Below are positions 4,459 through 42,960 of a stretch of DNA of 49,792 nucleotides, piece after piece. Origin of the DNA: Clostridia bacterium (GTDB lineage: Bacteria > Bacillota > Clostridia > Christensenellales > UBA3700); NCBI GenBank assembly GCA_029060065.1, contig JAIDUT010000044.1, positions 1-49,792 on the forward strand. Direction: 5' to 3'. The notes beneath the pieces were generated by a model. That model was not told where the DNA came from, searched no databases, and was given only the letters and a program-made list of their open reading frames with translations. The position numbers and the translations under genes are program-made. The stretch's first letter is position 1; each line of letters starts with the position of its first letter.

Positions 4459-6279
4459 TCAGTCGATACATTGGGCGACGATAATTCTATCTATCCCTTG
4501 CAAGTCCTTAACTACTTTGCATTCATAGTCCTTAAGCATTTCTACGACGGCATTTGCTTGGTCTATACCCACTTCCAAGAGAAGATAGCCACCGTCATTA
4601 AGATACTCTTTGGCTCTGTCGGCAAATACTCTATAGAAATCAAGTCCGTCTGCTCCGCCGTCCAACGCGATATGCGGGTCGTAATCTCTTACTTCCTTAT
4701 CCAACTTGGGTATATCTCCGCTGGGTATATACGGCGGATTGGATACGATAATATCAAACTTGCCGTCAATACTATCAAACTTATCGCTGAGAATAAATGA
4801 TATTTTATCCGCTAAGCCGTTGGCGTCTGCATTGTCTTTAGCTACGTCCAAAGCCGATTGGCTAATATCGCTTGCAACTACTTCACAACCTGCTTCACCG
4901 GCAATGGCAACTGCTATACAACCGCTTCCGCAACACATATCCAATACTCTGCTACCGCCTGTCGCAAGCTCTATCGCCTTTTGAGCAAGATACTCCGTCT
5001 CCGGTCTCGGACAAAGCACGTCGGGAGTGACGGATATGCTGTAGCCGTAAAAATCTACGTTGCCGAAAACTCTCCAAAGCGGTTCGCCCTTTTGTCTTTT
5101 CTTGGCAAATTCAACTGCCTTTTCATACTCCATTTGTCTTACGTGAGTAAGATTTGTAAGTTCGCTCCGCTTGACAGCGCAAGCCTCGCAGAATATCCAA
5201 TCTATATCGCTCTCGTCCACGCCCTTTAGCATAGTCCTTATTTCGTTTCTTACTTTTTCGTACGGCTTTTTGGTATCAAACCTCTTTTCCGGTATCGTTG
5301 GGTCCGCATCCATTGCCATAACTGTCTTGAACGCCGTAATAGCGCATTCTACCATTGAATCGTCAGGCTGTTTGGTCGTCAATTTCTGTAGCATAAGTCC
5401 CGGGAACTTGAATATACGAACCAACCAGTTGTCGTACTTAGCCATAGTCTTAAGCATCTCGTAACTTATTCCCATAACGATAGGAAGTAGAATTATTCTC
5501 GACGCAAAAAGTATTACGTTCTTCCATATGCCAAGGCTCTCCATATACGGCTCGAATATGCCGACAATAGAGAAAATAACCACGCTGACAAGCATAACGA
5601 TAAACATAAACGTAGTTCCGCATCTGTCGTGTACGGTCGTCATCTTCTGCGCATTTTCTACGGTGAGTTCCAAGCCGTGCTCGTAACAACTTATCGTCTT
5701 ATGCTCCGCGCCGTGATACATATAAGTGCGTTTAATAGGTTTCATAAGCGTGGTAAACGCAATATATATAACGAATATTATTATTCGTAACAAGCCCTCA
5801 AATAGCGCGTAAAGCACCGTGACGTACCAAAGCGTATTTGCCTCTTCGGATATATACTTGGCTACAAGCGCCTTTACTCCCGTGAGTATGCCGAGCGGTA
5901 GGAAGAAAAACAGTCCTATTGCCAATATTATACCCAGTACTACGGAAAATGCCATCATAACATCGTATATATTGACTTTGAGTTTTTTCGCCATCCACTT
6001 TTCAAGTTTGCTAGGCTGGGTATCGTCGTCAAAGACTGCGCCCGAGCGCATAAGCGTCTTCATTCCGCTTACCATAGAGTCGAAAAAGTTGAACACTCCT
6101 CTAATAAATGGAACGCGATAGATTTTAGGACGTTCGCTTACGGATTTGATATATCTACTCTCGACGACGATATTGCCCTTTTCGTCGCGCACCGCAGTAG
6201 CCATAGATCTCTCACCGCGCATCATTACGCCTTCCAATACGGCTTGACCGCCTATTTTAGATGTATACTTTCTTGCCAT
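4459..6279 (-). CDS. prmC: DUF1385 membrane domain fused to release factor glutamine methyltransferase PrmC
   Basis: N-terminal IGGQAVLEGVMM, YHGAEHK, RCGT; C-terminal PRPETE, DMCCGSGCI, SNPPY. Confidence 0.9.
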   Translation of the reverse strand: MARKYTSKIGGQAVLEGVMMRGERSMATAVRDEKGNIVVESRYIKSVSERPKIYRVPFIRGVFNFFDSMVSGMKTLMRSGAVFDDDTQPSKLEKWMAKKLKVNIYDVMMAFSVVLGIILAIGLFFFLPLGILTGVKALVAKYISEEANTLWYVTVLYALFEGLLRIIIFVIYIAFTTLMKPIKRTYMYHGAEHKTISCYEHGLELTVENAQKMTTVHDRCGTTFMFIVMLVSVVIFSIVGIFEPYMESLGIWKNVILFASRIILLPIVMGISYEMLKTMAKYDNWLVRIFKFPGLMLQKLTTKQPDDSMVECAITAFKTVMAMDADPTIPEKRFDTKKPYEKVRNEIRTMLKGVDESDIDWIFCEACAVKRSELTNLTHVRQMEYEKAVEFAKKRQKGEPLWRVFGNVDFYGYSISVTPDVLCPRPETEYLAQKAIELATGGSRVLDMCCGSGCIAVAIAGEAGCEVVASDISQSALDVAKDNADANGLADKISFILSDKFDSIDGKFDIIVSNPPYIPSGDIPKLDKEVRDYDPHIALDGGADGLDFYRVFADRAKEYLNDGGYLLLEVGIDQANAVVEMLKDYECKVVKDLQGIDRIIVAQCID

Positions 6280-6807: not shown

Positions 6808-6933
6808 ATGAGTAGAGTTGATAAAAGTCGTAATCGAAGAATACGTCGTGCTCAACGTAATGATTTGAAAATGAATATGCGTTATAGATATTGGCATCGT
6901 CGTATTGGTGGAAGATACGGCAAAAATAAGTGA
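6808..6933 (+). CDS. Arginine-rich 41-aa peptide
   Basis: AAGGTGG RBS; MSRVDKSRNRRIRRAQRNDLKMNMRYRYWHRRIGGRYGKNK; fills the gap between co-oriented genes; below ORF-track cutoff. Confidence 0.6.
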   Translation: MSRVDKSRNRRIRRAQRNDLKMNMRYRYWHRRIGGRYGKNK

Positions 6934-6959
6934 TTTTATGTATTGACGAGGTGCTTAAA

Positions 6960-7580
6960 ATGGAAAACGGAACGAAAAAGTACATTGAAACGGTCAAATA
7001 CCTTGAAAAGTTGTACGACTATTGCAACGAAAAATTGTTTAACGGCGAACTTTCAAAACCTGTAATTACGGTGCAATGTGACGAGCGCAATAAAACAAAT
7101 GGTTGGTGGTCGGTTAAAAAGGTTTGGAAAGAAAGCGACGAAGACAAGGGCGAACACGAACTGAATATTACGGCGCAATCACTCAACCGCCCAATTAAAC
7201 AAATTGCCGAAACTATGATACACGAAATGTGCCACCAATACGCAAGCGTACACAATATGCAAGATACTTCCCGAGCAGGCAATTATCATAATAAGTTATT
7301 TAAGAAAATTGCCGAAAGTCACGGTTTGACTGTTGAATGTATGCAAACAATAGGTTGGTCGCATACGGAATTGACAAGTAAGACTGCGGAACTTATAACG
7401 GAATTTGTCAAGGACTTCCCTTGCAACGTTATTTACCGCTTACCTGTAATGAAAGGTCAAAGCGTTAAGAGTTCTAGCACTCGCAAGTATATTTGTCCGT
7501 GTTGTGGGCTTTCAGTAAGGGCAACAAAGGCGGTAAATATAATGTGCGTGGACTGTAATGAGTATTTGCAAGAGGAATGA
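6960..7580 (+). CDS. SprT-like zinc metalloprotease with C-terminal Zn ribbon
   Basis: HEMCH (HExxH), YHNKLFKKIA, CPCC...CVDC; start set at ATG 6960 after GAGGTG. Confidence 0.8.
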   Translation: MENGTKKYIETVKYLEKLYDYCNEKLFNGELSKPVITVQCDERNKTNGWWSVKKVWKESDEDKGEHELNITAQSLNRPIKQIAETMIHEMCHQYASVHNMQDTSRAGNYHNKLFKKIAESHGLTVECMQTIGWSHTELTSKTAELITEFVKDFPCNVIYRLPVMKGQSVKSSSTRKYICPCCGLSVRATKAVNIMCVDCNEYLQEE

Positions 7581-7945
7581 GTATGGAAAAAAAGCCTCGT
7601 AGACTTTCTTGTCCATATATAGAAAATGGGTGCGTTGGTATATGTAAGTTTAGCGTTATTGACGTGGTTTGTCCGTATTATGTCCCCGAATGTCCTTATG
7701 AAAAGTTAGAAGTAAATGATATAGTGGCAACCTATTTATTAAAAGTTAAACAATATGACATAACTTTGAACGATTATAGGTTGAAAGTTTATAAAGTAAA
7801 AACTAATGATATTTATCACGTAATTGGAAAAATATATTGCAACGCATTTGAAAGAATTGAGAGTATGAGTTATGGTCTTTGGACGAAACAGCGTGAGGAA
7901 TTTTGGGAAAAAGAGGGTTACAGTGTTGTTGATTATAAGGAATAA
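7577..7945 (+). CDS. Hypothetical protein with Cys-rich N-terminus
   Basis: ATGA overlap with upstream gene; CPY x3 motif. Confidence 0.7.
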   Translation: MSMEKKPRRLSCPYIENGCVGICKFSVIDVVCPYYVPECPYEKLEVNDIVATYLLKVKQYDITLNDYRLKVYKVKTNDIYHVIGKIYCNAFERIESMSYGLWTKQREEFWEKEGYSVVDYKE

Positions 7946-7975
7946 TTACAAGAGGAATAAGTTAAGGTAAAATAT

Positions 7976-8087
7976 GGGAACGTGCGTAGTGGTAAGCGCG
8001 CACATATAAACGGGTATTCCCCCTCTTCCATAGAAATTACCCGTTAAAGTATGTGAGGGGCAAGTTCAATTCTTGTCGTTCCCACCA
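7976..8087 (+). ncRNA. tRNA-like RNA with expanded (45-nt) anticodon loop
   Basis: Acceptor GGGAACG/CGTTCCC + ACCA; D arm GCGT-AGTGGTAA-GCGC; stem CACAT/ATGTG; T arm GCAAG-TTCAATT-CTTGT. Confidence 0.8.
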
Positions 8088-8137
8088 CTAAAAAAAATAC
8101 GCGTGCCGTATGCGACAAGCGGTAAAGGAAAATTATT

Positions 8138-8575
8138 ATGGCAAACGAAAAGAAAGTAAAGGCAACTGAAAGCGTAGAAAGCACGACCACGGCGGAAGTA
8201 TCGGCAACGACCGAAAAAAGACTTGTGGTAGAGCGTGAAAAGTTCATTGCGAAAGACGGTCGAGAGATGTGGGGCTACGCTGTACACGGAAAAGTACGCG
8301 GACGTGATACAAAAGTAGACTTCAACGCTTATGACCAAGGCGGATATGAAGTGTTGGATATGGTATTCGACATTAAGCCTACCGCTGACCTTTTGATGCG
8401 TGAAGAAAGTATGACGGACGGCGATACGGGCGAAATTCGCAAATACACGATTTACGAAGTCAAGAATATTGACGAGGACGGCGACGAGATTTCTTGCCGT
8501 ATCAAGCCTGCAAGGGATAGCGACAAATCAATACTCGCCTATTTGTTGAAGAAGTTGAATAGACAAACGGCGTAA
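8138..8575 (+). CDS. Hypothetical protein, candidate ssDNA-binding protein
   Basis: Clear ORF with AAGGAA RBS and its own terminator; beta-rich pattern and position before the membrane-protein genes; function is inference only. Confidence 0.55.
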   Translation: MANEKKVKATESVESTTTAEVSATTEKRLVVEREKFIAKDGREMWGYAVHGKVRGRDTKVDFNAYDQGGYEVLDMVFDIKPTADLLMREESMTDGDTGEIRKYTIYEVKNIDEDGDEISCRIKPARDSDKSILAYLLKKLNRQTA

Positions 8576-8591
8576 GTATATATATTGTATA

Positions 8592-8636
8592 TATAAAAAG
8601 AGGGGGTGGTGTATAACTATCCCCTTTTATGCTTTT
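8592..8636 (+). terminator. Intrinsic terminator-like hairpin
   Basis: AAAAGAGGGGGTGGT-GTATA-ACTATCCCCTTTT followed by T-rich tail. Confidence 0.6.
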
Positions 8637-8681
8637 TAGACGGTTGAATAAAGGTAACGAAATGTAGAGAGGAAAAGGAAA

Positions 8682-8891
8682 ATGGTAATTAGGAACTTTA
8701 TTGAAGTAACGAACTTTGACGACGGTGCGAACGTGTTAATACCTATTGATAAGATATTGGGTATTGTGTGTGATAGTGGCGGTAACGTATTTATTGAAAT
8801 GGGAACGGATAACAGAACTGTGTCGTCGGGTATTCTTGTAATTGAGAGTTACGACGAAATCAAAAATAAATTAAAAGCAAGTGAGGCGTAA
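8682..8891 (+). CDS. Small hypothetical protein (FlbD-like pattern)
   Basis: LIPIDKILGI...V.ESYDEIKNKL resembles small FlbD-like beta proteins; purine-rich RBS. Confidence 0.55.
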   Translation: MVIRNFIEVTNFDDGANVLIPIDKILGIVCDSGGNVFIEMGTDNRTVSSGILVIESYDEIKNKLKASEA

Positions 8892-13507: not shown

Positions 13508-13665
13508 CAGCGACTTGTTGGGTCGCTGTCGGTGGACTTATTACCACTCACCGCTGTTGAGAAGCGGTGCCTACTGACTAATAGGTATTACCTTTCGTGG
13601 TCGGTAAGGCAATTATATATGATTATTGTTGTAAAAGTCAAACAAATTTACAAAAAAAAATAAAT

Positions 13666-13683
13666 TTGAAAGTGTACTTTCAA
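13666..13683. promoter_or_regulatory. Palindrome TTGAAAGT-NN-ACTTTCAA, copy 1 of 4
   Basis: Also at 18160-18177, 19472-19489 and 23379-23396. Confidence 0.7.
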
Positions 13684-13695
13684 AAAGGAAAGAGA

Positions 13696-13925: not shown

Positions 13926-14141
13926 ATGAAAGTAATTGATTACGTAGGCTGGATAGTTGGTTTTTTGATTGGCGTTGGTGTGCCTAGTTTGATTTTGTTT
14001 ATTGTCAATTATGCAAAAAAGCATAAAGGACAGCAACCGTCAAAGGGTGTTAAAACGCTAATAAGATTATTAAACGTAATAATTTTTGTAGTGGTGTTGG
14101 CGGAAATAGGTTACTTTATCTATACGGGGGTACGACTATGA
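13926..14141 (+). CDS. Small two-TM membrane protein (71 aa)
   Basis: Two hydrophobic helices separated by a basic loop; ATGA overlap with the ATPase gene. Confidence 0.7.
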   Translation: MKVIDYVGWIVGFLIGVGVPSLILFIVNYAKKHKGQQPSKGVKTLIRLLNVIIFVVVLAEIGYFIYTGVRL

Positions 14142-16315
14142 ACGCTAACGGAAACGGAAAAAGACGCTTTAATTATCGTCATATAATTTGTGTAATGATA
14201 ACGCTTGGTTGCTTGGCTTGCTCGTTGTTCCGCTATTCAAGTGCGCTTGGTAGAATCATTGAGGGCGGACGTGATTTTGGGCTTTCTATTGCCTACTATT
14301 TTTGTGAAATGTTTGGTATTGAGCATAATATCACGCCAACAGTCAATGACTTGCCAAAGATACCGTTTTTCGACTTTGCGCAATCTCCTGCGCCGTCAAC
14401 TCCTCTGCCCGATACTACTGACGGCTTTAAGGCGAATTGGACGGTATATTGGCAGTTGTGGGCTACGAAAGCAAACTTTATGGGATATTTGTCGTTCCTT
14501 GGCGACGTACTTTTTTATACTTTTTGTTGTACAATTACAATCATATTGCCACTTGTAGGCGGTTTGTATTTGTACTTAAAAAGATACTTCAAAAAGGTAA
14601 ATAATGATTACAACAAGGATAGCCGTCCGCTAAAAGTGTGCAAATGGCTTACGGCTCATACATACTCCCCCGTCAAAAGATTTGTTGTGGGGCTTTGGGC
14701 TTTTATAAAAGAGCATAAGCAGTACGTCATAGTGTGGGGCTTTATATGGGCGTTTAACTTCAATATAATTGCAATCGTGCTTGAATTTTTGGCATATTAC
14801 TTTTATTTTGTAGTGTCCTTTGACGTAGCGAGTATTTATCGGCAAGTATACAAACTATTTCTTGACCTGTCAGTACCGTTAAAGGCTATACCCGTATGGG
14901 CTTGGGTAATGATAGGGCTTGGGTGGTTTGACAACTTCCGCAAAAAAATAGCGTACGCAACTCTAAATCATTACGAAATGCGAAATCGTGGCTTTGTCAA
15001 CGCCCGTCCTATCGTATTTATGACGTGCGGTACAATGGGAAAGAAAAAGACAACGACGATAACGGATATGGGGCTTTCGCAAGAGGTAATGTTTCGTGAT
15101 AAAGCATTGGAAAAGTTGCTTGAAAACGACTTAAAATTTCCATACTTCCCTTGGATAAATTTGGAAAATGAGTTAAAACGTGCAATGCAATACCACGAAG
15201 TATATAATCTTGCTACGGTGCGAAAATTCGTCTATAAAAAGGCGAAAAGGTGGCAAAAGACTAAAACGCAAAGTAAACTCTTTGACTATGAATATGAACG
15301 CTATGGGTTTACTTACGACGATAAATTGAAAATTGTCAACGTGTGGGAAGTAATTGAGAATTACGCTCAACTATACTTTATCTATATAATACAGTCGTCT
15401 TTGATTATTTCTAATTATTCTATACGTGTGGACGCTGTTTTGAGTGATTTAGGCAACTTCCCTATGTGGAATAGCGACTTTTTTAAGCGTGATAGTAGGC
15501 TTATAGATAGTTTCTCGCGCCACTCTCATATCTTGGACTTTGACAGTCTACGGCTTGGGCGTAAAGTTGTTAAAAATAACATTAACGCAAACAACTTCGA
15601 GTTTGGCGTCGTAGTAATTACGGAAGTTGGCAAAGAGCGTGGCAATAATCTTGAATTACAAGAAAAGAAAAAGAAAGATATTGACACAAATCAAAAAAAT
15701 GACTTGTTCAATAGTTGGCTTAAAATGGTACGCCACTCCGCCACCGTAGACAACTTCCCTTTTGTAAGGGTAATCGTTGACGAGCAACGTCCTGAAAGTT
15801 GGGGTGCAGACGCTCGCGATTTATGCGAAATCGTACATATACGCGAAGGCGGAGATACACGACTTGCAATGCCTTTCTTCTCACTTGCTGAATTGCTTTA
15901 CGACTGGATACTTGGCAAGTTTTCAGGGCTATATTATCAATATAGATATGTGCGTAGTGATAAGACCGTGCCTATGTATGCTCTCAAAGCGTTTACGGCG
16001 AAAATAGACCACTACTACACGCGAATTTATAATCGTTTTGGATACTGCCGTTTGCAGGTGCAAACCGAAAGCGGAACGCAAGACGGACAACGTGACGAAA
16101 ACAAATACTATTTAATGCCTAAAAAGATTTATAGTAAGCGTTTTTCCACTGACTGTTATTCGGACTATTTTACAGAAAAAGCGTTACGCTCTCCCGTCGG
16201 TATCGACGATTTGAGGGAATACGAAACCGAAAAAGCAACGTTTAGCGAACTTCGCTTACAAAATAGTTACTTTGTCAATGACCTATTAAATGGCTTGACT
16301 GAAAATAAAAAATAA
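14138..16315 (+). CDS. Multi-TM Zot/pI-like (FtsK-HerA clade) ATPase
   Basis: N-terminal TM segments; variant Walker A GTMGKKKTT; Walker B-like VVVITE; LKMVRH...RVIVDEQRPESWGADARDL matches the RH / Q / R pattern of pI-like ATPases. Confidence 0.7.
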   Translation: MNANGNGKRRFNYRHIICVMITLGCLACSLFRYSSALGRIIEGGRDFGLSIAYYFCEMFGIEHNITPTVNDLPKIPFFDFAQSPAPSTPLPDTTDGFKANWTVYWQLWATKANFMGYLSFLGDVLFYTFCCTITIILPLVGGLYLYLKRYFKKVNNDYNKDSRPLKVCKWLTAHTYSPVKRFVVGLWAFIKEHKQYVIVWGFIWAFNFNIIAIVLEFLAYYFYFVVSFDVASIYRQVYKLFLDLSVPLKAIPVWAWVMIGLGWFDNFRKKIAYATLNHYEMRNRGFVNARPIVFMTCGTMGKKKTTTITDMGLSQEVMFRDKALEKLLENDLKFPYFPWINLENELKRAMQYHEVYNLATVRKFVYKKAKRWQKTKTQSKLFDYEYERYGFTYDDKLKIVNVWEVIENYAQLYFIYIIQSSLIISNYSIRVDAVLSDLGNFPMWNSDFFKRDSRLIDSFSRHSHILDFDSLRLGRKVVKNNINANNFEFGVVVITEVGKERGNNLELQEKKKKDIDTNQKNDLFNSWLKMVRHSATVDNFPFVRVIVDEQRPESWGADARDLCEIVHIREGGDTRLAMPFFSLAELLYDWILGKFSGLYYQYRYVRSDKTVPMYALKAFTAKIDHYYTRIYNRFGYCRLQVQTESGTQDGQRDENKYYLMPKKIYSKRFSTDCYSDYFTEKALRSPVGIDDLREYETEKATFSELRLQNSYFVNDLLNGLTENKK

Positions 16316-18053: not shown

Positions 18054-18110
18054 GCGACACCTTGTACCGTCCGCCGTCAGGCGGACGCTCGTAGTAGTAC
18101 AAGGTATCGC
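18054..18110 (+). repeat. 57-bp branched hairpin, candidate double-strand origin, copy 1
   Basis: 54/57 identical to 21301-21357; directly downstream of rep; contains TAGTAGTAC. Confidence 0.7.
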
Positions 18111-18179
18111 CTAATAGCCCCTATGGTAAATTTACCATAGAATTAAGCAAAGAATTGTCTTGAAAGTGCACTTTCAAAA

Positions 18180-18476
18180 CTAGGCTTTGCAAGGCTCTAA
18201 AAGTCTATCTATCGTAACGCTATGATACTTGGCAAGGGCTATCAAATATCGTAGGGACGGAACAACCTCGCCACGCTCCCACTGACTGACATTTTTTTGA
18301 TTAACTCCCAAAGCGTCGGCTACGTCCTTTTGACTTTGCTTGCGGTCTTGTCGTAAGCAAATAAGATTGAAAGCAAGGTCAATTCTAGGCTTTGTGTTTT
18401 CGTCGGCTTGCTCTCTTTGTTCCATTAGACTAAAAAGCGATATTTTTGCCGTTGTTGTGTAAGTAGGAAATAACAT
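18180..18476 (-). CDS. XRE-family HTH regulator 1
   Basis: LRQDRKQSQKDVADALGVNQKNVSQWERGEVVPS; start uncertain, ATG 18476 coincides with the predicted +1. Confidence 0.85.
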   Translation of the reverse strand: MLFPTYTTTAKISLFSLMEQREQADENTKPRIDLAFNLICLRQDRKQSQKDVADALGVNQKNVSQWERGEVVPSLRYLIALAKYHSVTIDRLLEPCKA

Positions 18477-19427: not shown

Positions 19428-19493
19428 ATACCACGAAAGGACGATAGCAACCGCTACCGCCCTTTTGATTTTTGAAAGTGTACTTTCAAAAAA

Positions 19494-19721
19494 TTACTCT
19501 GTTTCGCTATACTCCCCCACGCAAAGGACTTCGTTTGCGTCAAGGTCTAGCACGGCACAAAGTTTTGCAAAAGTATCTAATGCGGGCATTGCTCTCCCCG
19601 AAAGATATTGGGCAATTGTCGAAGATTTAATATTAACTCTTCGGCAAATTTCCGCTTGTGTCATTCCACTATTTTTGATAGCATCTTTTAATTTCTCTCT
19701 AATTGCATTTAACGTAATCAT
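19494..19721 (-). CDS. XRE-family HTH regulator 2
   Basis: SGMTQAEICRRVNIKSSTIAQYLSGRAMP; ATG 19721 after GGGAGG. Confidence 0.88.
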   Translation of the reverse strand: MITLNAIREKLKDAIKNSGMTQAEICRRVNIKSSTIAQYLSGRAMPALDTFAKLCAVLDLDANEVLCVGEYSETE

Positions 19722-21300: not shown

Positions 21301-21357
21301 GCGATACCTTGTACCGTCCGCCGTCAGGCGGACGCTTGTAGTAGTACAAGGTGTCGC
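21301..21357 (+). repeat. 57-bp branched hairpin, candidate double-strand origin, copy 2
   Basis: Direct repeat of 18054-18110. Confidence 0.7.
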
Positions 21358-21417
21358 GTAATAGCCCCACTAATCAAATTTGATAGAAAAACCGCTTGAA
21401 ATTAAGTAATATTTTGA

Positions 21418-23372: not shown

Positions 23373-23591
23373 CAATTATTGAAAGTACACTTTCAAAAAA
23401 CTAATCAAGCCGTCGTAGTACGGCTATTTGTCGTGCAACAAACTTCCCCGTTTGCGCCGTTTTTCTACCACTTGCAAGTGGTAGAAAAAGTTAAAGCCCA
23501 CCGAATTACTACTTTCGACAGGCTTTTTTATCGTGTAACAAACTTTTTTTGAATTTAAGAAAAAAATTCTAAAAAAATGCTTGACTTTTCA

Positions 23592-42721: not shown

Positions 42722-42796
42722 AGATTTTTTGACCTTGCTCGAAATGACGTTAAGACCGCTTGATTTTGTTATATATATTTGGTATAATGATTGCAG

Positions 42797-42891
42797 AAAG
42801 TGTAGAGTTTGCGCGTGAAGTGTCGTCTGGACGGGGAGTGCCGACGAACGAAAAGTAAAACTACTTGCGGTGCAACACTCACTCCCACTTT
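42797..42891 (+). ncRNA. THF riboswitch
   Basis: GTAGA...GCGTGAAGTG...ACGGG..GT...AACGAA...GCG...TCC pattern, closing stem AAAGTG/CACTTT, upstream of folC; TGGTATAAT extended -10 just upstream. Confidence 0.85.
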
Positions 42892-42960
42892 GGACTAGTT
42901 ATATCTTTTGGACGTAATTACAGTGTCTTTTTGTGGGGAACTTTCTTAGGAGGTTCTCTT

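What the first reader, a model, noticed from the sequence alone, without database searches (positions are those of the whole stretch)
7976..8087. tRNA mimic with a 38-nt hairpin inserted in the anticodon loop
Seen: intact acceptor stem, encoded CCA, D arm with GG, T arm with TTC and a perfect anticodon stem. The loop is 45 nt and holds a second stem AACGGGTA/TACCCGTT with a pyrimidine-rich apex (CCCCCTCTTCCAT). The insert is bounded by a TAAA repeat, and removing 38 nt leaves a 7-nt loop ATAAAGT (U33, anticodon AAA, rare in bacteria). Only 1 nt links acceptor and D stems. The insert is too short for a group I intron. Inference: a decoy for anticodon nucleases, a tRNA-scaffolded small RNA, or an RNase P processing signal ahead of 8138. 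It is internal, so not an att remnant.
Basis: partly seen in the sequence, partly recalled or inferred. Interest (0 to 1): 0.82.

Follow-up and report, generated by a model that had tools for sequence, protein, structure and literature searches.

The report
tRNA-shaped RNA cutting signal, hammerhead-interchangeable
A tRNA look-alike that cannot decode sits in front of a gene in a mobile element of a gut bacterium, and related elements carry a self-cutting hammerhead ribozyme at the same place, so it most likely marks where the RNA is cut.

Summary
Window 7976-8087 (+) folds as a cloverleaf: 7-bp acceptor stem, ACCA end, GG in the D loop, canonical T arm. Its anticodon loop is 45 nt and holds an 8-bp hairpin with a C-rich apex. 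It is not a decoding tRNA and not a known kind of intron-bearing tRNA.

It lies inside a low-GC integrated element (rolling-circle Rep, tyrosine integrase), between a SprT-like gene plus a small ORF and a conserved 145-aa gene. I examined 115 homologous loci with at least 250 nt upstream of that gene. At the same place, 41 carry a tRNA-like element, ranging from Rfam-scoring tRNAs to 44-nt acceptor/T-arm minihelices. Another 21 carry a type I hammerhead ribozyme, 9 a third ACCA-ended fold, and 44 nothing. Module type changes at least 16 times on the gene tree, even between near-identical genes. A hairpin with a CCUCC/CUCCU loop accompanies nearly every module. It sits 5' of the tRNA-like element, on hammerhead stem III or, here, in the anticodon arm.

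Best reading (0.55): an intercistronic RNase P-type processing module, equivalent to a self-cleaving ribozyme, that also carries an anti-Shine-Dalgarno-like hairpin. No expression data were available, and the role of the hairpin is open.

The parts
7976..8087 (+). tRNA-shaped element (112 nt): acceptor stem, D arm, extended anticodon arm, T arm, ACCA
7976..7982 (+). acceptor stem 5' strand GGGAACG; T at 7975 is position -1 (expected RNase P cut between 7975 and 7976, inferred)
   Evidence: pairing drawn by ARAGORN
7984..7999 (+). D arm (GCGT / AGTGGTAA / GCGC) with the GG of the D loop
8001..8055 (+). anticodon arm: stem CACAT(A)/(T)ATGTG closing a 45-nt loop instead of 7 nt
8009..8045 (+). 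inserted hairpin: 8-bp stem AACGGGTA/TACCCGTT and 21-nt apex with CCCCCTCTTCC (C-rich, anti-Shine-Dalgarno-like). This is the only part that differs between the two known alleles.
8060..8076 (+). T arm GCAAG-TTCAATT-CTTGT (G53, T54, T55, C56, A57, A58, C61 all canonical)
8077..8087 (+). acceptor 3' strand CGTTCCC, discriminator A (G in runs X2/X6), encoded CCA
8088..8137 (+). conserved 5' leader of orf145 (A-run, TACGCGTGCCGTATGCGACAAGCGGT, ribosome-binding site AAAGGA). It is shared with loci that carry other module types.
   Evidence: (X9 record 5)
8138..8575 (+). orf145, conserved 145-aa protein of unknown function (mostly beta, weak OB/SSB-like fold hits only)
8598..8638 (+). intrinsic-terminator-like hairpin plus T-run after orf145
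6930..7580 (+). SprT-like metalloprotease gene. Its presence upstream goes with presence of an RNA module.
7577..7945 (+). variable Cys-rich small ORF (122 aa). Homology to the sister alleles ends at 7971, just 5' of the tRNA-like element.

Best explanation
The element is a non-decoding tRNA mimic that works at the RNA level as an intercistronic processing module of an integrated mobile element.

Proposed mechanism. It is transcribed as part of a + strand transcript that runs from the SprT-like gene and the small ORF into orf145. Its acceptor/T-arm minihelix, U at -1 and ACCA end are the parts that RNase P and the tRNA 3'-end machinery recognise. Cleavage would cut the transcript directly in front of the orf145 leader, so orf145 is expressed from an RNA with its own defined, structured 5' end, uncoupled from the upstream cistrons. 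In sister elements the same job is done by a type I hammerhead ribozyme or by reduced tRNA-like folds.

The 38-nt insert is not an intron. It is the family's conserved C-rich (CCUCC/CUCCU-type, anti-Shine-Dalgarno-like) hairpin, moved onto the anticodon arm. It is released with, or held by, the tRNA-like body. Its own role is unresolved; the likeliest is pairing with Shine-Dalgarno-type purine tracts, in cis or in trans.

Shown: the fold, its conservation pattern, the interchange with hammerheads, and the link with the upstream co-oriented genes. Inferred: transcription, RNase P cleavage, the effect on orf145 expression, and the hairpin's target.
For: 1. The fold is real and unlikely by chance.

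2. What is conserved is the 'top half'. Under a strict test (acceptor at least 6 of 7 pairs, T stem at least 4 of 5, G53, T-loop motif, C61, NCCA, 20-140 nt before the gene), 23 of 102 distinct upstream regions pass on the forward strand. On the reverse complement 2 pass, both true tRNA genes. None passes in 50 shuffles. The bodies range from 44-nt minihelices (L007, L014, L059) to class-II-like tRNAs that reach Rfam tRNA scores of 64.6, 60.2 and 45.3 bits (L050, L046, L034). 11 of 12 sister sequences fold with acceptor plus T arm in the MFE structure.

3. Interchange with a ribozyme. Of 115 loci with at least 250 nt upstream, 41 have a tRNA-like element, 21 a hammerhead core, 9 a third ACCA-ended fold and 44 none. 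13 hammerheads were parsed completely: CUGANGA, GAAA, a GUC cleavage site, and stem I covarying over at least 7 sequence pairs. L104, L105, L107, L110, L117 and L128 (hammerhead) and L106 and L109 (tRNA-like) share an identical leader and gene, and L109 keeps a hammerhead 5' remnant. On the orf145 tree (93 rows) module type changes at least 16 times. Well-supported branches force at least 6 changes each for tRNA-like and for hammerhead.

4. Intercistronic context. A co-oriented SprT-like gene lies within 2.5 kb upstream in 38 of 38 tRNA-like, 15 of 16 hammerhead and 8 of 8 type-2 loci, and in 0 of 34 module-less loci. Only loci with at least 1500 nt upstream were counted.

5. Design of the downstream product. 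A small hairpin, often with a GNRA loop, starts 0-3 nt after the CCA in 21 of 23 distinct tRNA-like loci and after the hammerhead cut in 8 of 12. At control positions the rate is 30% (968 of 3230).

6. The C-rich motif is present in 40 of 41 tRNA-like, 21 of 21 hammerhead and 8 of 9 type-2 regions, against 11 of 44 module-less regions. It lies in hairpin loops and at the apex of stem III in all 13 parsed hammerheads.

7. Allele comparison. The 74-nt body is identical in the L006 allele and in runs X9 and X13, while the insert differs by 6 substitutions and 7 deleted nt yet keeps a hairpin with a C-rich apex.

8. From established knowledge (recalled, not checked here): RNase P needs only the acceptor/T-arm minihelix and is helped by the RCCA end and by U at -1.
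Against: - No RNA data: no RNA-seq holder was listed, and only contigs could be laid. Transcription, ends and cleavage are therefore all inferred.
- A sigma-70-like match (ATTACA, 17 nt, TAAAAT, 7945-7973) would start transcription inside the acceptor stem. A -10-like hexamer stands at the same place in the L006 and X2 alleles. If it is used, the full cloverleaf could not form.
- The window type lacks the small 3' hairpin found in 21 of 23 sister types.
- The CCA is encoded, and (recalled) this blocks RNase Z. How the 3' side is cut is therefore unclear.
- No locus-specific complementarity was found between the C-rich loops and the cognate ribosome-binding site or downstream region (57 loci).
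- Identity of the body between alleles is weak evidence on its own: about 2 differences would be expected at the divergence of the neighbouring gene.
- Locus counts include near-duplicates, such as metagenome contigs that repeat MAG contigs.
Confidence: 0.55

Rival explanations
1. The payload is the hairpin. The tRNA body is a natural scaffold that gives defined ends and stability to a small trans-acting RNA. Its C-rich apical loop would pair with Shine-Dalgarno regions of element or host mRNAs, in the manner of C-rich-loop sRNAs of Firmicutes. The hammerhead (hairpin on stem III) and an RNase P site placed 3' of free hairpins would be alternative ways to release the same effector. This overlaps with the best explanation and differs in which cleavage product matters.
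For: - The hairpin with a CCUCC/CUCCU loop is the most constant feature of the modules (40 of 41, 21 of 21, 8 of 9).
- It occupies three different positions relative to the cut: the anticodon arm here, hammerhead stem III, and 5' of the tRNA-like element.
- Stems vary while the loop motif stays.
- Run X2 has both an upstream CUCC-loop hairpin and the insert.
- The insert is the one fast-changing stretch between alleles, yet it keeps its fold and its C-rich apex.
Against: - No target was found. Cognate pairing with the ribosome-binding site or the downstream region is no better than non-cognate pairing.
- The best partner in the island, the terminator arm at 8598, is matched equally well by shuffled loops (45 of 100).
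- There is no match to RsaE-type or any other Rfam sRNA family.
- The module is tied to one gene neighbourhood rather than free-standing.
- No expression data.
Confidence: 0.2
2. A degenerating tRNA gene carried by the element, disabled by an insertion and kept only by hitch-hiking. It has no function of its own.
For: - Some sister loci have near-canonical tRNAs at the same spot (L046, L050, L034), so a true tRNA is a plausible ancestor.
- The body shapes form a series of decay-like reductions.
- Zero differences in 74 nt between alleles is not significant given 1.8-2.7% divergence next door.
Against: - Random decay would not spare exactly the acceptor stem, T arm and NCCA over loci whose orf145 proteins are only 40-80% identical.
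- It would not be replaced repeatedly by an intact hammerhead.
- It would not track the presence of upstream co-oriented genes.
- It would not keep a hairpin with the family's loop motif in the 'insert' in both alleles.
Confidence: 0.1
3. A DNA-level signal of a rolling-circle element. The hairpins and cloverleaf would form in single-stranded DNA and serve as a lagging-strand origin, nick site, packaging signal or recombination hot spot.
For: - The island encodes a Rep of the ORF2/G2P type and a tyrosine integrase.
- Hairpins with conserved loops are typical of such origins (established knowledge, recalled).
- Homology between alleles breaks exactly at 7971, the 5' edge of the element, in three different upstream contexts.
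Against: - The hammerhead catalytic core with covarying stems and the tRNA T-loop/NCCA signature are RNA-level features with no known DNA role.
- All are in the sense orientation of the flanking genes.
- A better origin or att candidate exists next to the Rep and integrase genes: the 68-nt palindromic repeat at 18054-18121 and 21301-21368.
Confidence: 0.07
4. A genuine tRNA gene with a short intron that is spliced to give tRNA-Phe(AAA), or a decoy substrate for anticodon nucleases.
For: - ARAGORN with introns allowed reports tRNA-Phe(aaa) with a 38-nt intron.
- Removing 38 nt leaves a 7-nt loop with U33.
Against: - 38 nt is far below group I intron size, and there is no intron family hit.
- The junction is a 2-nt/4-nt internal loop plus an 8-bp helix, not a bulge-helix-bulge.
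- Bacteria have no known machinery for such introns, and an unmodified AAA anticodon is not used in them (established knowledge, recalled).
- The other allele has a 31-nt insert with a shifted stem.
- Many relatives have no anticodon arm at all, so neither decoding nor anticodon-loop mimicry is the conserved property.
Confidence: 0.04

Closest known systems
tRNA-like processing signals inside longer transcripts (mascRNA at the MALAT1 3' end; tRNA punctuation of mitochondrial transcripts; bacterial tRNA-mRNA co-transcripts such as the tufB operon). Recalled, not read here.
   Same: A tRNA-shaped fold embedded in a longer transcript recruits RNase P and the tRNA 3'-end enzymes. Their cuts define the ends of the neighbouring RNAs, and decoding is irrelevant.
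   Different: This one sits in a bacterial integrated mobile element, in a leader between cistrons. Its anticodon loop is replaced by a conserved C-rich hairpin, it has an encoded CCA, and across relatives it is exchangeable with a hammerhead ribozyme. Processing is not shown.
Bacterial type I/II hammerhead ribozymes near phage-like genes. [quoted passage not shown]
   Same: The sister loci carry complete type I hammerheads in an intergenic position of a mobile element. The review says bacterial roles are 'largely elusive' and that processing of polycistronic transcripts has been suggested.
   Different: The window element is not a hammerhead. The sister hammerheads fall below Rfam gathering scores because of a long stem III (26.2 and 13.8-17 bits). 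Natural replacement of a hammerhead by an RNase P-type substrate at the same site turned up in none of my searches.
Engineered 'tRNA scaffold' for expressing recombinant RNA, in which the insert replaces the anticodon loop. Recalled, not read here.
   Same: Same architecture: an intact acceptor, D and T framework with a foreign hairpin grafted on the anticodon stem. In the engineered case this gives correct processing and nuclease resistance.
   Different: This one is natural, and whether stabilising the hairpin is its purpose is unknown.
HDV-like theta ribozymes next to tRNAs in gut phages (PMC10879173: search listing and start of abstract only)
   Same: Small self-cleaving ribozymes and tRNA genes are functionally linked in mobile elements of gut bacteria.
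   Different: There the ribozyme flanks and helps mature a decoding suppressor tRNA. Here the ribozyme and the tRNA-like fold are alternatives at one site, and the tRNA-like fold does not decode.
C-rich-loop sRNAs of Firmicutes (UCCC-motif RNAs, RsaE/RoxS, RNAIII hairpins). Recalled, not read here.
   Same: Hairpin loops rich in C that are complementary to Shine-Dalgarno sequences.
   Different: No Rfam match. Not a free-standing gene with its own promoter and terminator. No target found.
Bacterial Y-RNA-like tRNA mimics (YrlA). Recalled, not read here.
   Same: A non-decoding bacterial RNA with a tRNA-like domain.
   Different: As recalled, in YrlA the tRNA-like domain is internal and the RNA ends form the Ro-binding stem. 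Here the acceptor stem is open with an ACCA end. No Rfam match at gathering score. I did not look for an rsr gene.

Membership tests
Decoding tRNA (Rfam RF00005) | Cloverleaf with 7-bp acceptor stem, T arm with G53-TTCRA-C61, GG in the D loop | tested here: met
Decoding tRNA (Rfam RF00005) | 7-nt anticodon loop presenting an anticodon | tested here: not met
   The loop is 45 nt with an internal 8-bp hairpin.
Decoding tRNA (Rfam RF00005) | Reaches the family's covariance-model score | tested here: not met
   No tRNA match at gathering score or at E<=10 on 7850-8250. ARAGORN by default finds none.
Decoding tRNA (Rfam RF00005) | Aminoacylation and use in translation | not testable with these tools
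   Needs a bench assay.
Intron-containing tRNA (group I or bulge-helix-bulge intron) | Group I core of about 200 nt or more, or a 3-nt bulge / 4-bp helix / 3-nt bulge at the splice sites | tested here: not met
   The insert is 38 nt and there is no intron family hit. The junction is a 2-nt/4-nt internal loop plus an 8-bp helix.
Intron-containing tRNA (group I or bulge-helix-bulge intron) | Insert conserved in position and length among homologues | tested here: not met
   38 nt here against 31 nt in L006, with a shifted stem. The insert is absent from all more distant tRNA-like homologues.
RNase P-type tRNA-like processing signal | Coaxial acceptor/T-arm minihelix with a canonical T loop | tested here: met
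   The same parts are the only ones kept across sister loci.
RNase P-type tRNA-like processing signal | 3' RCCA and a pyrimidine (U) at -1 | tested here: met
   ACCA 8084-8087 and T at 7975. The discriminator is G in runs X2 and X6.
RNase P-type tRNA-like processing signal | Embedded in a longer transcript between same-strand genes | tested here: inconclusive
   The flanking genes are co-oriented, and the module tracks the upstream genes. Transcript continuity has not been observed, and a promoter-like match overlaps the 5' edge.
RNase P-type tRNA-like processing signal | Actual cleavage by RNase P | not testable with these tools
   No RNA reads.
Hammerhead ribozyme | CUGANGA ... GAAA core with three helices and an NUH cleavage site | tested here: not met
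   None in the window on either strand. The feature is met in sister loci: 13 parsed completely, and 21 of 115 have the core.
C-rich-loop (anti-Shine-Dalgarno type) sRNA | Unpaired C-rich loop complementary to ribosome-binding sites | tested here: met
   The apex holds CCCCCTCTTCC. Sister loops hold CCUCC/CUCCU.
C-rich-loop (anti-Shine-Dalgarno type) sRNA | Identifiable target with specific pairing | tested here: inconclusive
   No cognate-specific pairing over 57 loci. The best local partner is not better than for shuffled loops.
C-rich-loop (anti-Shine-Dalgarno type) sRNA | Member of a described sRNA family | tested here: not met
   The only Rfam hit is tpke11 at E=0.33, 17.5 bits against a gathering score of 43.

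The most novel reading that the evidence does not exclude
The C-rich, anti-Shine-Dalgarno-like hairpin is a mobile-element riboregulator. Evolution has grafted it onto whichever self-processing scaffold was at hand: the anticodon arm of a tRNA mimic (a natural counterpart of the engineered tRNA scaffold), stem III of a hammerhead ribozyme, or a position just 5' of an RNase P site. Scaffold cleavage would then release or activate the regulator. On this reading, hammerheads of this bacterial class are functionally equivalent to RNase P substrates, and the tRNA mimic in the window is both the cutter's handle and the carrier of the effector.
Probability: 0.25. Interest if true: 0.85.

Novelty: new variant of a known kind. 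Interest (0 to 1): 0.68.

Why it matters
The biological role of most bacterial hammerhead ribozymes is still described as largely elusive (PMC6765202, section read).

This gene neighbourhood offers a natural substitution series. At one site in homologous mobile elements, there is a hammerhead, a full tRNA-like fold, a bare acceptor/T-arm minihelix, or a tRNA mimic carrying a hairpin. They replace one another repeatedly. If this is confirmed, what selection keeps at this site is a site-specific RNA cut, made either by the RNA itself or by RNase P. That makes the function of these ribozymes directly testable by swap experiments.

It would also give a natural example of the 'tRNA scaffold' design. 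It adds an uncatalogued family of tRNA-like elements (no Rfam model matches most of them) in gut Clostridia. And it points to a conserved anti-Shine-Dalgarno-like hairpin whose target is unknown.

Tried and rejected
- Similarity searches. blastn of 7900-8200 against the phage and plasmid collections gave no match. The own genome has a single copy. A scan of viral contigs with the orf145 profile gave no confirmed relative.
- A metagenome scan with a 24-nt exact pattern of the T arm plus acceptor 3' end gave 0 matches.
- No host tRNA of G000 (30 found) resembles the element beyond 17-18 nt of the T arm.
- RNA evidence. No RNA holder was listed. The four runs laid were contigs, so no starts, ends or expression can be read from them.
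- I first noticed that the apical loop CCCCCTCTT (8019-8027) is the exact complement of AAGAGGGGG (8598-8606) in the terminator arm after orf145, and that the L006 allele pairs in a shifted register. I rejected this as evidence. Shuffled versions of the C-rich loop pair as well with 8088-8700 (mean -17.4 against -17.5 kcal/mol; 45 of 100 as good). Over 57 loci, cognate pairing is no better than non-cognate.
- A conserved terminator after orf145 was not confirmed. My strict scan found one in 8 of 33 tRNA-like, 3 of 18 hammerhead, 1 of 8 type-2 and 2 of 40 module-less loci.
- A loose minihelix finder gave many chance hits on the reverse strand (20 of 102). I replaced it with the strict one.
- One MAFFT alignment of 14 tRNA-like elements (A3) had inconsistent registers, so I built no covariance model.
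- Function of orf145. No Pfam or PHROG family. Foldseek against PDB gave no hit at E<=0.001, only weak SSB/nsp9-like rows. The Atlas gave no named cluster.
- Rfam at E<=1 found nothing at this site for type-2 loci or for 8 module-less loci.
- A pattern for the common upstream hairpin was found in 1 of 401 sampled genomes of the order.
- The 16S 3' end was not found in G000, so the likeness to the anti-Shine-Dalgarno sequence rests on recalled knowledge.
- Literature. Searches found no description of this arrangement. Supplements are closed and subscription papers are not in the library, so a prior description may exist. The Weinberg-type motif catalogues in particular could not be checked.
Full report
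**1. The observation**

It has:
- a perfect 7-bp acceptor stem (GGGAACG/CGTTCCC)
- discriminator A and an encoded CCA
- a D arm with AGTGGTAA in the loop
- a 5-bp anticodon stem, extendable to 6
- a 4-nt variable region
- a T arm whose G53-TTCAATT-C61 is canonical

The 'anticodon loop' is 45 nt (8006-8050). It holds an 8-bp stem (8009-8016 / 8038-8045) capped by a 21-nt apex rich in C and T.

ARAGORN by default reports nothing in the window. With introns allowed it reports tRNA-Phe(aaa), 74 nt plus a 38-nt intron, at exactly these coordinates. Run the same way on the whole 1.57-Mb assembly, it makes 31 tRNA calls, and only this one has an intron. RNAfold recovers the cloverleaf with a long anticodon arm: -38.9 kcal/mol, z = -4.21, and 0 of 200 shuffles fold as well. 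The Rfam tRNA model does not match even at E<=10. The only hit is tpke11 at E = 0.33, far below its threshold.

The '1-nt linker' depends on reading a 4-bp D stem. ARAGORN reads 3 bp and a 2-nt linker.

**2. Context**

The element lies in a low-GC island of about 6.3-24 kb (GC 0.33-0.41 against 0.42-0.47 outside). The island sits between chromosomal genes: tRNA synthetase, threonine synthase, RF-1 and a DUF1385-methyltransferase fusion on one side, and a ZIP transporter, DNA ligase and PcrA/UvrD on the other.

The island reads almost entirely on the + strand. Its genes, in order:
- a SprT-like gene (6930-7580)
- a Cys-rich 122-aa ORF
- the tRNA-like element
- a 145-aa ORF (8138-8575) followed by a terminator-like hairpin
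- a 534-aa protein with Listeria-Bacteroides repeats
- large proteins without families
- a Rep of the ORF2/G2P rolling-circle type
- a tyrosine integrase
- an IS

The tRNA-like element is therefore internal to a mobile element. The nearest named records are Christensenellales-type gut MAGs.

**3. Nearest relatives**

One same-genus genome, G017 (locus L003, which appears to be the same contig as L006, since features lie at the same coordinates in both), matches from 7968 onward at 94% identity. In the alignment the 74-nt tRNA body is identical. The insert is 31 nt instead of 38, with several substitutions. It still forms a hairpin with a C-rich apex.

Contigs of four public runs show only these two alleles:
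- X2 and X6 carry the window's insert unchanged, with discriminator G.
- X9 and X13 carry the L006 type.

In all of them homology stops at 7971. The window, L006 and X2 each have a different upstream context. In X2 the upstream flank is another hairpin with a CUCC loop. For comparison, the neighbouring 510 nt differ at 9 to 14 positions.

**4. The wider family**

orf145 has 124 relatives in the protein collection, none of them named. A profile of 35 of them recovered 65 loci from species genomes and 61 from metagenomes; some of these are duplicates of each other.

Reading the 220-330 nt upstream of the gene showed alternative RNA modules at the same place. Of 115 regions with at least 250 nt upstream, motif tests found:
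- 41 with a tRNA-like element
- 21 with a hammerhead core
- 9 with a third fold closed by a stem and ACCA ('type 2', no Rfam match)
- 44 with none. Two of these are tRNA-like by eye (L048 and L101).

**5. The tRNA-like elements**

Three of them reach Rfam tRNA scores of 64.6, 60.2 and 45.3 bits and have a long extra arm (L050, L046, L034). Others are four-arm cloverleaves with small arms. Some are 44-nt minihelices made of only an acceptor stem and a T arm.

A strict test required an acceptor with at least 6 of 7 pairs, a T stem with at least 4 of 5, G53, the T-loop motif, C61 and NCCA, all 20-140 nt before the gene. It is passed by 23 of 102 distinct regions on the forward strand. On the reverse strand 2 pass, both true tRNA genes. 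None passes in 50 shuffles. This test misses variants with acceptor mismatches.

What all variants keep is the acceptor/T-arm half and the NCCA end. From recalled knowledge, this is the part recognised by RNase P and the CCA-related enzymes.

**6. The hammerheads**

Thirteen were parsed completely. Each has:
- stem I of 5-6 bp, with at least seven different covarying sequence pairs
- CUGANGA
- a closed stem II
- GAAA
- a long stem III
- a GUC cleavage site

They are type I, meaning stem I is the open stem. Rfam scores them below threshold (26.2 bits for L052; 13.8-17 bits for L019), apparently because of the long stem III. In every one of the 13, the apex of stem III is C-rich and contains CUCC.

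**7. Interchange**

L104, L105, L107, L110, L117 and L128 carry a hammerhead. L106 and L109 carry a hairpin plus a tRNA-like element. All eight have an identical leader and gene start. L109 even keeps the 5' part of the hammerhead.

On a maximum-likelihood tree of 93 orf145 proteins, module type changes at least 16 times. Shuffled labels give a mean of 45. Well-supported branches force at least 6 changes each for tRNA-like and for hammerhead.

Modules occur where a co-oriented SprT-like gene lies upstream: 38 of 38 tRNA-like, 15 of 16 hammerhead and 8 of 8 type 2 loci, against 0 of 34 module-less loci. Only loci with at least 1500 nt upstream were counted.

**8. The C-rich hairpin**

CCTCC, CTCCT or CCCTC occurs upstream in 40 of 41 tRNA-like, 21 of 21 hammerhead and 8 of 9 type-2 regions, but in only 11 of 44 module-less regions. 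It sits in hairpin loops.

Typical tRNA-type loci have two hairpins 5' of the tRNA-like element, with loops such as TTGCTCCTT and CAACCTCCA. Hammerhead loci have one, on stem III. The window lineage has it in the anticodon arm. The stems differ while the loop motif stays.

The motif is complementary to Shine-Dalgarno sequences and so resembles the anti-Shine-Dalgarno core of 16S rRNA (recalled; no 16S end was found in the assembly).

I found no locus-specific partner. Pairing with the cognate ribosome-binding site or downstream region is no better than with non-cognate ones. The 9-nt complement in the terminator after orf145 is no better than what shuffled loops achieve.

**9. The downstream product**

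A small hairpin, often closed by a GNRA-type loop, begins 0-3 nt after the CCA in 21 of 23 distinct tRNA-like loci. It begins after the hammerhead cut in 8 of 12, where it re-uses the 3' strand of stem I. At control positions the rate is 30%.

This fits a design in which the cut leaves the orf145 mRNA with a structured 5' end. In Firmicutes such an end protects against 5' exonuclease (recalled). The window and L006 are the two exceptions: they have only CT between the ACCA and the shared leader.

**10. Interpretation**

The simplest account of all this is a processing module. It makes a site-specific cut between the upstream cistrons and orf145, either by the RNA itself (hammerhead) or by RNase P and the 3'-end enzymes (tRNA-like folds).

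The window's element is the variant in which the family's C-rich hairpin has been moved onto the anticodon arm. It is not an intron:
- it is too short
- it has no bulge-helix-bulge
- the two alleles have different lengths and registers
- it is absent in more distant homologues

It is not an anticodon-nuclease decoy, because the anticodon arm is dispensable in the family.

Whether the product that matters is the downstream mRNA, the released hairpin-bearing RNA, or both cannot be decided from sequence.

Points against my reading:
- there are no RNA data
- a promoter-like match would start transcription inside the acceptor stem
- how the 3' side is cut is unclear, given the encoded CCA
- locus counts contain near-duplicates

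**11. Literature**

A review (PMC6765202, section 13 read) states that bacterial self-cleaving ribozyme roles are largely elusive, and that processing of polycistronic transcripts has been suggested. HDV-like theta ribozymes next to phage tRNAs are described in PMC10879173 (listing and start of abstract only).

My searches found no report of tRNA-like folds and hammerheads alternating at one site, or of a tRNA mimic carrying an anti-Shine-Dalgarno-like hairpin. The library lacks many subscription papers and all supplements, so this is not proof of absence.

**12. Verdict**

This is a real, non-random tRNA mimic. It is a new variant of a known kind, the tRNA-like processing signal or tRNA mimic. 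It belongs to an uncatalogued and highly modular family of RNA elements in mobile elements of gut Clostridia. Interest is moderately high because of the natural tRNA-like/hammerhead interchange and the unexplained conserved hairpin. The mechanism is inferred, not shown.

Noticed in passing
L047, L090-L092, L094, L097, L098, L100, L102 (about 60-140 nt before the orf145 homologue): A third module ('type 2'). A 6-bp closing stem (GGAAGC/GCTTCC or GAGAGC/GCTCTC) is followed by ACCA or TCCA. It encloses a variable hairpin and a hairpin CGCAAG-GGTGGCGT-CTTGCG, whose loop could pair with an upstream GCC(C). Stems covary between loci. No Rfam match at E<=1. It could be a further tRNA mimic or an undescribed ribozyme.
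   Followed up: partly
L018, L021, L025-L027, L030, L032, L045 (module-less, AT-rich loci), about 60-130 nt before the gene: A recurring motif: AATAAAACTGTAAG, a hairpin, CAC, then a second hairpin with TAGTTAAAG in or near the loop. No Rfam match at E<=1 in the five of these loci that were searched, L018, L021, L022, L025 and L045. Unexplained.
   Followed up: partly
L109 (upstream of 1983) compared with L107: A hybrid. The 5' strand of stem I, the core and stem II of the hammerhead are kept, but GAAA and the 3' half are replaced by a C-rich hairpin plus a tRNA-like element. This looks like a recombination intermediate.
   Followed up: partly
window 18054-18121 and 21301-21368: A 68-nt, strongly palindromic direct repeat (94% identical), lying after the Rep gene and after the integrase block. 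It is a candidate origin or attachment site of the element.
   Followed up: no
window 13662-13693, 18156-18187, 19468-19499, 23375-23406; also directly after orf145 in many loci: The palindrome TTGAAAGTGTACTTTCAA recurs four times in the island. It also follows the stop codon of orf145 homologues in many sister loci. It may be an operator or a processing site.
   Followed up: no
run X9, record 5, laid on window 8090-8136: A 4165-nt contig shares only the 47-nt orf145 leader. Before it stands a different element ending ...CTGCCACCA plus a CCC-GCAA-GGG hairpin, and after it a different gene start. The leader itself is therefore a shuffled module.
   Followed up: no
window 42796-42892 (+): THF riboswitch aptamer: 62.2 bits, E = 9e-12, full-length. 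It is unrelated to the finding.
   Followed up: no
window 4459-6279 (-): A 606-aa fusion of a DUF1385 domain with a PrmC/PrmA-like SAM methyltransferase, next to the RF-1 gene.
   Followed up: no
window 14138-16315 (+): A 725-aa protein of the island with N-terminal membrane segments and a GTMGKKKT P-loop-like stretch. No Pfam or PHROG family. Conserved in 22 of 66 loci. Possibly the element's DNA translocase or morphogenesis ATPase.
   Followed up: no
L011, L013, L026, L028, L029, L036, L061, L074-L077 (0.2-4 kb upstream of orf145 homologues): True tRNA genes flank several of the elements, often on the opposite strand. This suggests integration next to tRNA genes in those genomes.
   Followed up: no
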